DNA of 64,000 nt from Escherichia coli (GTDB lineage Bacteria; Pseudomonadota; Gammaproteobacteria; Enterobacterales; Enterobacteriaceae): assembly GCF_041248615.1 (NCBI RefSeq), contig NZ_CP158426.1, one strand, 5' to 3'. A program made the translations under genes and the position numbers. The notes beneath the pieces were generated by a model that saw only the letters and a program-made list of their open reading frames with translations, made no database searches and was not told where the DNA came from. This document shows positions 35,878-39,525 of this stretch, in pieces. Position 1 is the first letter of the stretch. Each line of letters opens with the position of its first letter.

Positions 35878-36773
35878 TGTCGCCTGTCCGTCATCGAATA
35901 TGTTTTATCGCCACTTTCCGGAATATCAATTAACTTAATTAATAACGCGTCCATTTCCTTTGCGCAGATTAATGCATTTTCAGAGTGGATTAATACTTCA
36001 AAAGGGATTTTATTCATGGCTCACCCCTCACGAATACGCTGTTTCTTATACATAAATCCCCACCCGGGGTGAAATCATACACCTCGTGATTGATTCCAAC
36101 GGGCTAAAAGTCTTTGGGGAAGGCGAAAGGAAAGCCAAAAAGCACGGCAAAGAGGGGCGTCGCATCTGTCTGTTGATGGCAACACACATGAAATTGTCTG
36201 TGCAGACCTGTCGCTGAACAACGTCACGGACTCAGAAGCCTTCCCGGGGCTTCTCCAACAGACTCACAGAAAAATCATGGCTGCAGCGGTAGACGGGGCT
36301 TACGACCCCCGACTCTGTCACGATGAACTGAGGCGTAAGAAAATCAGCGCGCTTACCCCTTCCCGAAAAGGTGCGGGTTACTAGCCCGGTGAATACGAAG
36401 ACCGTAACCGTGCAGTGGCTAATCAGCGGCTGACCGGAAGTAATGCCCGGTGTAAATGGACAACAGATTATAACCGTCGTTCGATAGCGGAAACAGCGAT
36501 GTACCGGGTAAAACAGTTGTTCGGAGGTTCACTGACGCTGCGTGACTACGATGGTCAGGTTGCAGAGGGTATGGTCATGGTGCGTATTTTCATGAAAGGA
36601 GATCACTCAATAACTTCCATCGAGATCGGGTAATAACATTTGAACAGATCGCTGAATAACATCGATGGAGATCACTTTTGACTCATTTTGTTATTCAGTG
36701 ATCTCCATCAATGTTATTGGAACTTCACAGGTGTGTTGATCTGTATCTTTTGCCATTCCGGTAAAGGATACCT

Positions 36774-38315
36774 ATGCCAACAGTTCCAATTTCTATGAGA
36801 AAACTTAAAGAAATTCTTAGGCTTAAATACGGTGTTGGACTCAGCCATCGACAAATTGGTCGTAGTCTTGCAATCTCCCCTTCCGTTGTATCCAGATATG
36901 CTAATCGGGCGGCTCAACTTGGCATAAAGCAGTGGCCCTTACCTACAGGATGGGATGATACAAAACTAAAACATGCGTTCCTTCAGACCCAGGTTAAGAT
37001 GAAGAAGCACTCTCTGCCTGACTGGGCTACAGTACACCGGGAACTGCGTAATAAATGCGTGACGCTGCAGCTACTCTGGGAAGAATACTGTGAGCGTAAT
37101 CCAGGCGGTTTTTACAGCTATAACCATTACTGCCGGATGTACCGTGAATGGCTCAAAACCACTTCACCATCAATGCGTCAGGTACATAAAGCTGGCGAAA
37201 AACTTTTCGTTGATTACTGTGGACCTACCGTTGGCGTTACCGACCCTGAGACCGGAGAAATAAGAACTGCTCAGGTCATCGTAGCTGTTCTCGGGGCATC
37301 AAGTTACACATGGGCAGAGGCCACCTGGTCTCAGCAGCTTGAAGACTGGGTGATGAGTCATGTTCGCTGCTTCCAGTGGTTGGGTGGCGTTCCTGAACTT
37401 GTTGTTCCGGACAATCTGAAAAGCGCCACATCCAGGGCATGTAAGTATGATCCTGACGTTAACCCTACCTACCAGCAGATGCTTGAGCATTATAATGTCG
37501 CAGTTTTGCCTGCGCGGCCACGTAAACCGAAAGATAAAGCCAAAGCTGAAGTTGGCGTTCAGGTTGTTGAACGCTGGATCATGGCCCGAATCAGGCATGA
37601 GATCTTCTACAGCCTTGCATCGCTTAATCAGCGCATTCGGGAGTTGCTGGAAAGACTGAATAACAAAATAATGCAGAAGTTGGGTTATTCACGTGCAGAA
37701 CTCTTCATCCAGCTTGATAAACCCGCACTGAAGCCTCTTCCTGAAGCCAGTTACAGTTACACCCTGGTGAAGAAAGTCAGAGTTCATGCCGATTACCACG
37801 TGGAAATCGACAAACATTACTACTCGGTTCCATGTTCGCTGTTAGGCCAGCAACTGGAAGCATGGATCTCCGGAGAACTGGTAAGACTCTTCAATCAGGG
37901 GCAGGAGGTTGCTGTGCACCCGCGCAAGCGTACTTATGGCTACAGTACCCGCAACGAGCACATGCCTGAAGCTCATCGACAGCATGCCACCTGGACGCCA
38001 GAGCGTCTTCTGGAATGGGCGGGGCACATAGGCAGTGAAACTCATAGTTATGTGCTTCATATACTGAACTCTCGTCCACATCCGGAACAAAGCTATCGCT
38101 TCTGCCTTGGACTCCTGAACCTTCATAAAAAATACAGTAAAGCCAGACTTAATGCAGCATGTGCAAGAGCTCTGAAAACAAAGGTATGGCGTCTGTCAGG
38201 TATTAAATCGATCCTGGAAAAAGGTCTGGATAAACAACCTGTTCAGGATCCAAAACCAGATCTGTTATCCACGATGGAACACGAAAACGTACGCGGCAGT
38301 GAGTATTACCACTGA
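36774..38315 (+). CDS. istA: IS21-family transposase IstA (513 aa)
   Basis: Intact ORF with N-terminal HTH and DDE core. Confidence 0.8.
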   Translation: MPTVPISMRKLKEILRLKYGVGLSHRQIGRSLAISPSVVSRYANRAAQLGIKQWPLPTGWDDTKLKHAFLQTQVKMKKHSLPDWATVHRELRNKCVTLQLLWEEYCERNPGGFYSYNHYCRMYREWLKTTSPSMRQVHKAGEKLFVDYCGPTVGVTDPETGEIRTAQVIVAVLGASSYTWAEATWSQQLEDWVMSHVRCFQWLGGVPELVVPDNLKSATSRACKYDPDVNPTYQQMLEHYNVAVLPARPRKPKDKAKAEVGVQVVERWIMARIRHEIFYSLASLNQRIRELLERLNNKIMQKLGYSRAELFIQLDKPALKPLPEASYSYTLVKKVRVHADYHVEIDKHYYSVPCSLLGQQLEAWISGELVRLFNQGQEVAVHPRKRTYGYSTRNEHMPEAHRQHATWTPERLLEWAGHIGSETHSYVLHILNSRPHPEQSYRFCLGLLNLHKKYSKARLNAACARALKTKVWRLSGIKSILEKGLDKQPVQDPKPDLLSTMEHENVRGSEYYH

Positions 38316-38326
38316 TACGGGATCCA

Positions 38327-39076
38327 ATGATGAATCATCTTTACGAACAACTGACCGCACTTAAACTCACCGGCTTCCGTGATGCGCTTAAAAAGCAACT
38401 TGCTCAGCCGGGCACATACCAGGAGCTGGGCTTCGAAGAACGCCTGTCATTACTGACAGCAGAAGAACTAACCTGCCGTGAAAACAGGAAGGCAGAGCGT
38501 CTGATCAAACATGCACGGTTCAGACTTAATGCTGAGTTATCAAAGCTGGATTATCGTAACAATAGAGGGCTGGACAGGGCCCTCATCCGTTCACTCAGTC
38601 AGGGAAACTGGTTAACCCTGAAACAAAATATTTTACTGACCGGGGCCACCGGCAGCGGTAAAACGTTCCTGGCATGTGCACTTGGTCATAATGCCTGCCG
38701 ACAGGGATACAAGGTCTACTATTATCGCCTTAAAGCGCTGATGGAACAGTGCTATCAGGGGCATGCTGATGGAAGATACAGCAAACTTTTGACCAGGCTG
38801 AATAATAGCGATCTGCTGCTTCTGGATGACTGGGGGCTGGAACCTCTCTCATCAGAACAGCGTAGCGACCTGCTGGAAATAGTGGATCTGATGTACCAAC
38901 GAGGCTCAATCATCGTAGTGAGCCAGTTGCCGGTGGAAAACTGGTACAAAATGATCGGAGACTCCACACATGCGGATGCCATCCTAGATCGACTGGTTCA
39001 TGGCAGTATCAAGATCGAACTTAAAGGAGAATCAATGCGGAAAATACAATCTCCGTTGACCGAAGGAGATCAGTGA
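38327..39076 (+). CDS. istB: IS21-family helper ATPase IstB
   Basis: Walker A GATGSGKTFLA and Walker B LLLLDDWGLEP. Confidence 0.8.
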   Translation: MMNHLYEQLTALKLTGFRDALKKQLAQPGTYQELGFEERLSLLTAEELTCRENRKAERLIKHARFRLNAELSKLDYRNNRGLDRALIRSLSQGNWLTLKQNILLTGATGSGKTFLACALGHNACRQGYKVYYYRLKALMEQCYQGHADGRYSKLLTRLNNSDLLLLDDWGLEPLSSEQRSDLLEIVDLMYQRGSIIVVSQLPVENWYKMIGDSTHADAILDRLVHGSIKIELKGESMRKIQSPLTEGDQ

Positions 39077-39525
39077 AGGTAATTTAAAAACGGTTCTGTG
39101 AAAGTGACACGAACCGATCTCCATCGATGTTACTCACCGATCTCCTTCACGGTAATACGCAGGTCATGGCGCTAGCGCTGAATAAAATCACGAAAGTAGG
39201 TATGCCTGAGAGCGTGCGTATTGCCTGAAAGCACAACTAGCTACGGGGCTCTTACCCTAAATCAGATTTTTTCAACAAAGCCCAACTGGTATTAGAAAAC
39301 CTGTTGAATATTTAATACAACCATGTTAAATAAAAGAAATAAAGAACTGTTATATCTATTTTCTTAATGGTGAATCATTCAGCAATACCGAATAAAGTAG
39401 AATAGTTTTTAGAAATGCATCACATTTTCTTGTGTATACCCATATAGGAGATGTACATCCATAAAAGATAGAATAATAAAGTTAAATTGCCATGACGATA
39501 ATCACTTTCGAATAGGAGTAAATTA

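What the first reader, a model, noticed from the sequence alone, without database searches (positions are those of the whole stretch)
36060..39282. IS21-family element with a 513-aa IstA inserted in an IS903-like transposase gene
The insertion is precise: the 2582-bp element is flanked by GTCATGG, and the interrupted IS903-like frame resumes immediately after it. The element looks intact (both ORFs, both multi-repeat ends) and could still be active.
Basis: seen in the sequence. Interest (0 to 1): 0.35.

Follow-up and report, generated by a model that had tools for sequence, protein, structure and literature searches.

The report
ISEc12 inserted in dead IS903-like remnant
This is an ordinary, already annotated copy of the common E. 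coli insertion sequence ISEc12 that jumped into the dead remnant of another insertion sequence. Its only slightly unusual feature is an 8-bp target duplication where this element usually makes 5 bp.

Summary
The window is identical to E. coli NRZ14408 chromosome NZ_LT599825.1, where RefSeq already annotates ISEc12 istA, ISEc12 istB and a broken IS5-family transposase pseudogene at these coordinates.

The element is 36581-39161, 2581 bp (not 2582), with ends TGCGTA...TACGCA. It is flanked by an 8-bp duplication, GGTCATGG, not the 7-bp GTCATGG. At least 15 complete E. coli genomes carry the same island with the uninterrupted IS903-like remnant and a single GGTCATGG. This shows a precise, polymorphic insertion.

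The element looks intact:
- IstA has its DDE triad and IstB its Walker A and B motifs.
- Both ends carry repeats with a 23-bp period.
- It is 2579-2581 of 2581 bases identical to copies at many other sites.

The target was not a live gene. It is the 3' 60% of an IS903B-like element (86% nt identity), with a 16-bp deletion and a TAG stop. The empty alleles share these lesions.

One side result: ISEc12 usually makes 5-bp duplications, as the literature says. In an unbiased sample of 32 sites, 24 were 5 bp, four were 6 bp and four were 7 bp. The 8-bp case here is in the minority but not unique.

Verdict: already known, low interest.

The parts
36059..36580 (+). Left part of the IS903-like (IS5 family) remnant. 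It corresponds to IS903B from about position 405 up to the insertion point and is a pseudogene. Relative to IS903B it has deletions of 12 + 4 bp at 36168/36169 and 36172/36173, which shift the frame, and an in-frame TAG at 36382-36384 where IS903B has TGG.
   Evidence: BLASTN against IS903B gives 86% identity over 653 columns. Translation shows the frameshift and the stop. RefSeq calls it 'IS5 family transposase; frameshifted; internal stop; missing N-terminus'.
36573..36580 (.). Target-site duplication, left copy: GGTCATGG.
   Evidence: It is present only once in the empty allele L002.
36581..39161 (+). ISEc12, an IS21-family insertion sequence of 2581 bp with ends 5'-TGCGTA...TACGCA-3'.
   Evidence: It matches hundreds of plasmid and chromosome copies annotated as ISEc12 at 100% identity. 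Its ends were defined from more than 30 independent insertion sites.
36581..36674 (+). Left terminal region. It holds four direct repeat units with a 23-bp period, with cores xGAGATC/CAGATC at 36598, 36621, 36644 and 36667. The consensus is roughly AATAACATCGATGGAGATCRS. These are the presumed IstA binding sites.
   Evidence: The 23-bp spacing matches that reported for IS5376 repeats (PMC10122671).
36697..36722 (-). One more copy of the end repeat, in inverted orientation, between the left end and the istA start.
   Evidence: (I6: arms of 22 nt, 95% complementary).
36774..38315 (+). istA, a 513-aa DDE transposase. The catalytic triad D147/D213/E259 is present, and there is a second in-frame Met at codon 8.
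   Evidence: Pfam rve and Mu-transpos_C_2. NF033546 at 310.5 bits. Alignment to IS5376 IstA 8q4d combined with the published triad D124/D187/E233 (PMC11208146); residues checked. The protein is identical to WP_001298859.1.
38330..39076 (+). istB, a 248-aa AAA+ helper ATPase (249 aa if started at the ATG one codon upstream, 38327). Walker A is GATGSGKT at residue 105 and Walker B is LLLLDD at residue 162.
   Evidence: PF01695 at 227.5 bits. NF038214 at 270 bits. IS5376 IstB 8q3w at E=1.8e-27. Motifs checked. The protein is identical to WP_001016257.1.
39116..39161 (-). Right terminal region. It holds two repeat units 23 bp apart, with cores at 39139-39145 and 39116-39122 on the minus strand. 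A weaker inverted copy at 39048-39073 overlaps the end of istB.
   Evidence: (D1 spacing 23; I1, I2).
39162..39169 (.). Target-site duplication, right copy: GGTCATGG.
39162..39282 (+). Right part of the IS903-like remnant. It holds the last 22 codons of the transposase frame (stop TGA at 39226-39228) and the 18-bp right terminal inverted repeat at 39265-39282 (GATTTTTTCAACAAAGCC, 17/18 identical to IS903B). RefSeq does not annotate this part.

Best explanation
A complete copy of ISEc12, a two-gene IS21-family insertion sequence (2581 bp), transposed into the 3' part of an already dead IS903-like remnant. The remnant lies in a genomic island next to ynjA on the chromosome of E. coli NRZ14408.

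Shown here:
- The element's identity, its exact ends and its intact genes and end repeats.
- The 8-bp duplication of GGTCATGG.
- Alleles of the same island that lack the insertion.

Inferred from the IS21/IS5376 model:
- IstA, a DDE transposase, binds the 23-bp-spaced repeats in both ends and pairs the ends as a tetramer.
- IstB, an AAA+ ATPase, bends the target DNA and recruits and activates IstA.
- The two 3'-OH CA ends then attack the target strands. Here the attack points were 8 bp apart rather than the usual 5. Repair of the gaps produced the flanking GGTCATGG copies.

The insertion had no functional consequence for the IS903-like gene, which was already truncated and frameshifted.
For: - **Source.** The window has 0 mismatches over 64,000 bases to NZ_LT599825.1 2435672-2499671. 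That record annotates ISEc12 istA and istB and a broken IS5-family transposase here.
- **Identity.** 770 plasmid records match at >=99%, and 2007-2018 of 5426 complete E. coli genomes have a match. The copy in tssM/ImcF with duplication ACTGC (L004, L012) is 2580/2581 identical to the window's. That insertion is the one published as ISEc12 in ST131 (PMC10711316).
- **Family scores.** Both proteins score above the curated cutoffs.
- **Motifs.** The DDE triad and the Walker motifs are present.
- **Ends.** The ends are TG...CA, with repeat units at a 23-bp period.
- **Empty site.** It is found at 100% identity in 15 records and at 99.8% in 7 more, in the same neighbourhood.
- **Filled site.** Five complete genomes carry the identical filled site.
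- **Other sites.** Independent insertions elsewhere carry their own duplications.
Against: - The 8-bp duplication departs from the 5 bp reported for ISEc12 (PMC10711316) and for IS5376 in vitro (PMC10122671, PMC11208146). However, 8 of 32 unbiased natural ISEc12 sites have 6-7 bp, and one flank-swapped pair reconstructs to 8 bp.
- No transposition assay was done, so activity is inferred.
- The ISfinder reference entry itself could not be consulted.
Confidence: 0.97

Rival explanations
1. The real duplication is the usual 5 bp (CATGG). The three extra bases GGT between the right end and CATGG would then be a coincidence or a junction artefact.
For: 5 bp is by far the commonest length for ISEc12: 24 of 32 unbiased sites and the published value.
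Against: The three extra bases are exactly the three bases that precede CATGG in the empty allele; the chance of that is 1 in 64. Other independent ISEc12 insertions have clean 6-, 7- and 8-bp duplications. The element's right end is fixed at ...ACGCA in all copies.
Confidence: 0.03
2. The copy is an inert fossil: it looks intact but no longer moves, and it merely travels with the island.
For: No assay was run. The surrounding island is full of decayed insertion sequences. The five genomes with this filled site could share it by descent.
Against: Both proteins are identical to the most widespread ISEc12 proteins; IstA is indexed in 32,006 blocks of the collection. The DNA is identical or 1-2 bases different from copies at more than 30 other sites with fresh duplications. 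The site is polymorphic within one island type. In strain CS5L the right flank of this same copy has been replaced exactly at the element's end, a later rearrangement at that end.
Confidence: 0.07
3. ISEc12 and the IS903-like piece form a functional unit, such as a composite or hybrid transposon that moves as a whole.
For: BLAST at first seemed to show 'IS5 remnant + ISEc12' together in many other genomes (H49-H65).
Against: Those hits are the opposite arrangement: an intact IS5-family element inserted inside ISEc12 istA (L010). The remnant here lacks its left end and a working transposase, so it cannot be mobilised as an IS903-type element. The remnant exists without ISEc12 at the same locus.
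Confidence: 0.01

Closest known systems
ISEc12 (IS21 family; ISfinder name as used by NCBI PGAP and in PMC10711316)
   Same: It is essentially the same sequence. It is 2580/2581 identical to the published ST131 tssM insertion and matches hundreds of annotated copies at 100%. The proteins are identical to WP_001298859.1 and WP_001016257.1.
   Different: Only the target duplication differs: 8 bp here against the 5 bp reported and usually seen.
IS21 / IS5376 (the mechanistic and structural models of the family)
   Same: The gene order is istA-istB. IstA is a DDE transposase with HTH, rve and beta-barrel parts, and IstB is an AAA+ ATPase. The ends are TG...CA, and the end repeats are spaced 23 bp apart.
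   Different: The sequence relationship is distant: IstA matches at E=3e-13 over residues 107-389, and IstB at E=2e-27. IstA is 513 aa here, against the 373- and 406-aa IS5376 IstA chains in the solved structures. The left end has four direct repeat units plus an inverted one rather than two. Duplication length varies from 5 to 8 bp in nature, against a uniform 5 bp for IS5376 in vitro.
IS903B (IS5 family, IS903 group), the closest relative found for the interrupted target
   Same: 86% nt identity over IS903B positions 405-1057. The C-terminal frame has the same length. The right inverted repeat matches at 17/18.
   Different: It is a fragment, missing the left 404 bp, with a 16-bp deletion and a TAG stop. 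At 86% identity it belongs to a different IS903-group lineage. No copy closer than about 95% other than this same remnant was seen in complete E. coli genomes.

Membership tests
IS21 family | Two consecutive genes on one strand, a long istA followed closely by a shorter istB. | tested here: met
   istA is 36774-38315 and istB 38330-39076, 14 bp apart on the same strand.
IS21 family | IstA is a DDE (rve-type) transposase that scores above the curated family threshold. | tested here: met
   NF033546 at 310.5 bits against a cutoff of 160. PF00665 and PF22483 match. D147/D213/E259 align with D124/D187/E233 of IS5376 IstA.
IS21 family | IstB is an AAA+ helper ATPase with Walker A and B motifs. | tested here: met
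   NF038214 at 270 bits against a cutoff of 200. PF01695 at 227.5 bits. GATGSGKT and LLLLDD are present. It matches IS5376 IstB structures.
IS21 family | Terminal inverted repeats that begin 5'-TG and end CA-3'. | tested here: met
   The ends are TGCGTATT... and ...AATACGCA, with arms 36581-36596 and 39146-39161.
IS21 family | Multiple repeated transposase-binding sequences within each end. | tested here: met
   There are four units at the left and two at the right, with a 23-bp period, plus inverted copies. Binding by IstA itself was not tested.
IS21 family | A short direct target duplication. It is 5 bp for many members; 4-8 bp across the family is from my own recollection of Mahillon & Chandler 1998 and ISfinder. 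| tested here: met
   The duplication is 8 bp, GGTCATGG, and is single in the empty allele.
ISEc12 (a specific element) | Near-identity to sequences that carry this name. | tested here: met
   It matches PGAP-annotated ISEc12 copies at 100%. It is 2580/2581 identical to the tssM insertion published as ISEc12.
ISEc12 (a specific element) | A match to the ISfinder reference entry in length, ends and listed duplication. | not testable with these tools
   ISfinder is not among the available resources.
IS5 family, IS903 group (the interrupted target) | Sequence homology to IS903-type elements, including the 18-bp terminal inverted repeat. | tested here: met
   86% nt identity to IS903B positions 405-1057, and the right repeat matches at 17/18. 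The left repeat is absent because the remnant is truncated.
IS5 family, IS903 group (the interrupted target) | An intact transposase gene and two ends, i.e. a functional element. | tested here: not met
   404 bp are missing at the 5' end, a 16-bp deletion shifts the frame, and there is an in-frame TAG. It is a remnant, not an element.
IS5 family, IS903 group (the interrupted target) | A 9-bp target duplication. | not testable with these tools
   The left end of the remnant no longer exists, so no pair of flanks can be compared.

The most novel reading that the evidence does not exclude
The cutting stagger of ISEc12 is not fixed. In natural insertions about a quarter of the duplications are 6-8 bp rather than 5 bp, and the window's 8-bp GGTCATGG is one of them. 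The 5-bp class shows a symmetric nCnGn preference, and CCWGG is over-represented.

If this is a real property of the IstA-IstB complex, and not already documented, then the spacing between the two strand-transfer sites is more flexible than the fixed 5 bp built into the IS5376 structural model.
Probability: 0.4. Interest if true: 0.3.

Novelty: already known. Interest (0 to 1): 0.07.

Why it matters
It matters little. This is routine mobile-element annotation that RefSeq already carries. The presence or absence of the insertion could serve as a lineage marker for this ynjA-adjacent island. The copy adds to the pool of ISEc12 elements that can disrupt genes; the same element inactivated tssM in E. 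coli ST131 clade C (PMC10711316). The only point of wider interest is the side observation that one IS21-family element produces duplications of several lengths in nature. That bears on how rigidly IstB positions target DNA for IstA.

Tried and rejected
- **Plasmid origin.** An 8-kb query around the site found no plasmid record covering more than 38% of it. The locus is chromosomal.
- **Remnant + ISEc12 as a recurring unit.** Hits H49-H65 turned out to be an IS5-family element inserted inside ISEc12 istA, the reverse nesting.
- **Long duplications tied to a GGTCA target motif.** The top BLAST rows for the junction-spanning query were four independent insertions with 7-8 bp duplications starting GTCA. 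That ranking favours flanks that resemble the window's. In the unbiased set only 2 of 104 right flanks start GTCA (p=0.06). I do not claim this association.
- **Family-wide duplication lengths in the literature.** The Mahillon & Chandler 1998 review is not held, and a full-text search gave nothing useful. The '4-8 bp' family range therefore rests on my own recollection.
- **Metagenome scan.** Most contigs end inside the element, so only about a third of the loci gave both flanks.
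Full report
**What is in the sequence**

Between 36059 and 39282 the window holds a nested pair of insertion-sequence features. 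Two ORFs lie on the + strand: 513 aa (36774-38315) and 249 aa (38327-39076). The match extends one base further, to GGTCATGG at 36573 and 39162. Deleting the 2589 bp between the two copies restores one reading frame across the junction...DGQVAEGMVM|ALALNKITKVGMPESVRIA*.

**Where the window comes from**

The window has no mismatch over 64,000 bases to E. coli NRZ14408 chromosome NZ_LT599825.1, positions 2435672-2499671. RefSeq already annotates three features at these coordinates:
- istA, 'IS21-like element ISEc12 family transposase' (WP_001298859.1);
- istB, 'ISEc12 family helper ATPase IstB' (WP_001016257.1);
- an 'IS5 family transposase' pseudogene flagged as frameshifted, with an internal stop and a missing N-terminus.

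The finding is therefore already explained in a public record.

**Identity and exact limits of the element**

- The element matches 978 plasmid records, 770 of them at >=99%.
- It matches 2007-2018 of 5426 complete E. coli genomes, with up to 17 places per genome. The NRZ14408 chromosome has 5 matching places.
- I aligned the ends of copies from unrelated sites. All begin TGCGTATTTT and end GGTAATACGCA, followed by unrelated bases.
- The element is therefore 36581-39161, 2581 bp. The G at 39162 belongs to the target, and the duplication is 8 bp.
- The copy inside tssM/ImcF with duplication ACTGC (L004, L012) is 2580/2581 identical to the window's. That is the insertion published as ISEc12 in ST131 clade C (PMC10711316), which ties the name to the sequence.

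**The insertion is precise and polymorphic**

The reconstructed uninterrupted sequence is 652 nt with one GGTCATGG. It is found at 100% identity and full length in 15 complete E. coli genome records, and at 99.8% in 7 more.

In strain SCU-115 it lies between the same SSB/PerC/ProQ-like genes and the same cytochrome b562 gene. The flanks align at 100% on the left and 99.9% on the right. The two alignments overlap by exactly the 8 bases of the duplication.

Five complete genomes carry the identical filled site.

**Integrity of the element**

- IstA matches Pfam rve and Mu-transpos_C_2 and NF033546 at 310.5 bits, cutoff 160.
- Alignment to IS5376 IstA (PDB 8q4d) places D147, D213 and E259 opposite the published catalytic D124, D187 and E233 (PMC11208146). 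I checked the residues.
- IstB matches PF01695 at 227.5 bits and NF038214 at 270 bits, and the IS5376 IstB structures. It carries Walker A GATGSGKT and Walker B LLLLDD.
- The left end has four direct repeat units with a 23-bp period (cores at 36598, 36621, 36644, 36667) and one inverted copy (36697-36722).
- The right end has two units 23 bp apart, plus a weak inverted copy over the end of istB.
- The 23-bp spacing equals that reported for the IS5376 end repeats, where two complete repeats are required for integration (PMC10122671).

The 'both ORFs, both multi-repeat ends' statement is therefore correct.

**Likely mechanism**

This part is inferred from the IS21/IS5376 model (PMC10122671, PMC11208146):
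- An IstA tetramer pairs the two ends through the repeats.
- IstB decamers bend the target DNA and recruit and activate IstA.
- The terminal CA 3'-OH groups attack staggered positions in the target.
- Gap repair produces the duplication.

IstA also has a second in-frame Met at codon 8. This recalls the two IstA products of IS21 (transposase and cointegrase), which I cite from my own knowledge. It was not tested.

**The target**

The interrupted frame is not a live gene. Against IS903B (L022, element 496-1552) the remnant aligns to positions 405-1057 at 86% identity. It has these lesions:
- It lacks the left inverted repeat and the first 404 bp.
- It has 12 + 4 bp deletions at 36168-36173 that shift the frame.
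- It has TAG at 36382-36384 where IS903B has TGG.

It keeps the right inverted repeat (39265-39282, 17/18 match). Because the empty alleles are 100% identical over the whole remnant, these lesions predate or are independent of the ISEc12 insertion. PGAP annotates only the left piece and lets it run 53 bp into ISEc12, to 36633. The 3' piece at 39162-39228 is unannotated.

**Length of the duplication**

The literature gives 5 bp for ISEc12 and for IS5376 in vitro. I sampled sites without regard to their flanks, using three sources:
- spread rows of a BLAST search;
- two exact-protein look-ups;
- a metagenome scan with the right end of the element.

Among 32 distinct sites with both flanks, the duplication was 5 bp in 24, 6 bp in four and 7 bp in four.

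Two copies in one genome (L028, L029) have swapped flanks. They reconstruct to CCTGG (5 bp) and ACCACTAC (8 bp), which is most simply explained by an inversion between the two copies. The window's 8-bp duplication is thus unusual but not unique.

In the 5-bp class, C is favoured at position 2 (14/24, p=5e-4) and G at position 4 (16/24, p=2e-5). CCWGG starts 5 of 104 right flanks, against 0.2 expected. An apparent link between long duplications and a GGTCA motif did not survive the unbiased sample (2/104, p=0.06). I attribute it to BLAST ranking.

**Rivals**

- A 5-bp duplication plus three coincidental bases is unlikely: the chance is 1 in 64, and clean 6-8 bp cases exist elsewhere.
- A fossil copy is unlikely, given its identity to widely dispersed copies, the polymorphism at this site, and a later rearrangement exactly at the right end of this same copy in strain CS5L.
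- A composite unit with the IS903-like piece is excluded. The remnant lacks an end and a transposase, and it occurs alone at the same locus.

**Verdict**

This is an intact ISEc12 inserted by ordinary transposition into a dead IS903-like fragment. It is already annotated, so the novelty class is 'already known' and the interest is low.

Noticed in passing
window 32320-33634 (duplication at 32312-32319 and 33635-33642): An IS1414 copy (IS256 family, 1315 bp, inverted repeats GAGCCTGT...) is flanked by an 8-bp duplication, CAACTGTC. It is absent from the otherwise identical allele in strain SCU-115. It is a second polymorphic insertion in the same island. A second IS1414 transposase gene lies at 25100-26308.
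   Followed up: partly
window 1-45117: The left 45 kb of the window is an IS-riddled genomic island next to ynjA, ending at a tyrosine integrase gene (43930-45117). It carries iha (18824-20911), ibrB-like and PAPS-reductase genes, an extra amiC, PhoX, and broken ICE, ABC-transporter and LPS-modification genes. It also holds pieces of IS66, IS110, IS3, IS630 and IS256 elements. The core genome (ynjA, ydjXYZ, xthA, ast, chb) follows.
   Followed up: partly
window 1253-6876: Two more IS21-family elements lie in the window. The first is an IS100-like copy with a frameshifted istA (2349-4149), flanked on both sides by IS66 transposase fragments (1253-2256 and 4221-4756), which suggests another nested insertion. 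The second has an intact 390-aa istA (5162-6334) but a truncated istB (6334-6876).
   Followed up: no
L011 (NZ_CP158311.1, strain CS5L), locus 3001-6762: The left junction and ISEc12 copy are the same as in the window. The DNA to the right of the element's last base is replaced by an IS3-family pseudogene region, and the cytochrome b562 side is gone. This is a rearrangement or deletion ending exactly at the ISEc12 right end.
   Followed up: partly
L010 (NZ_CP085069.1), locus 2501-6151: This is the reverse nesting in another lineage. An intact IS5-family element (transposase WP_074194686.1) is inserted inside the istA of an ISEc12 copy, and that ISEc12 copy has a 5-bp duplication, GATGG.
   Followed up: partly
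L028 and L029 (LR880734.1, two ISEc12 copies in one genome): The flanks of the two copies are swapped. The left flank of L028 pairs with the right flank of L029 (ACCACTAC, 8 bp), and the left flank of L029 pairs with the right flank of L028 (CCTGG, 5 bp). This is as expected after an inversion by recombination between two inverted copies.
   Followed up: partly
ISEc12 insertion sites in L003-L139: The duplication length varies (5 bp x24, 6 bp x4, 7 bp x4 in an unbiased set). The 5-bp class shows an nCnGn preference, and CCWGG is enriched at 5 of 104 right flanks against 0.2 expected.
   Followed up: partly
window 36062-36633 as annotated in NZ_LT599825.1: The RefSeq pseudogene feature for the IS5-family transposase runs 53 bp into the left end of ISEc12, giving a read-through tail ...VRIFMKGDHSITSIEIG*. 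It omits the true 3' end of the frame at 39162-39228. This is a small annotation artefact of nested elements.
   Followed up: yes
window 35015-35901 and 39526-40586: The immediate neighbours are small genes typical of plasmid or ICE leading regions: SSB, a PerC-family regulator and a 58-aa ProQ/FinO-family protein. On the other side lie a secreted cytochrome b562 paralogue and a short YebF-family ORF.
   Followed up: no
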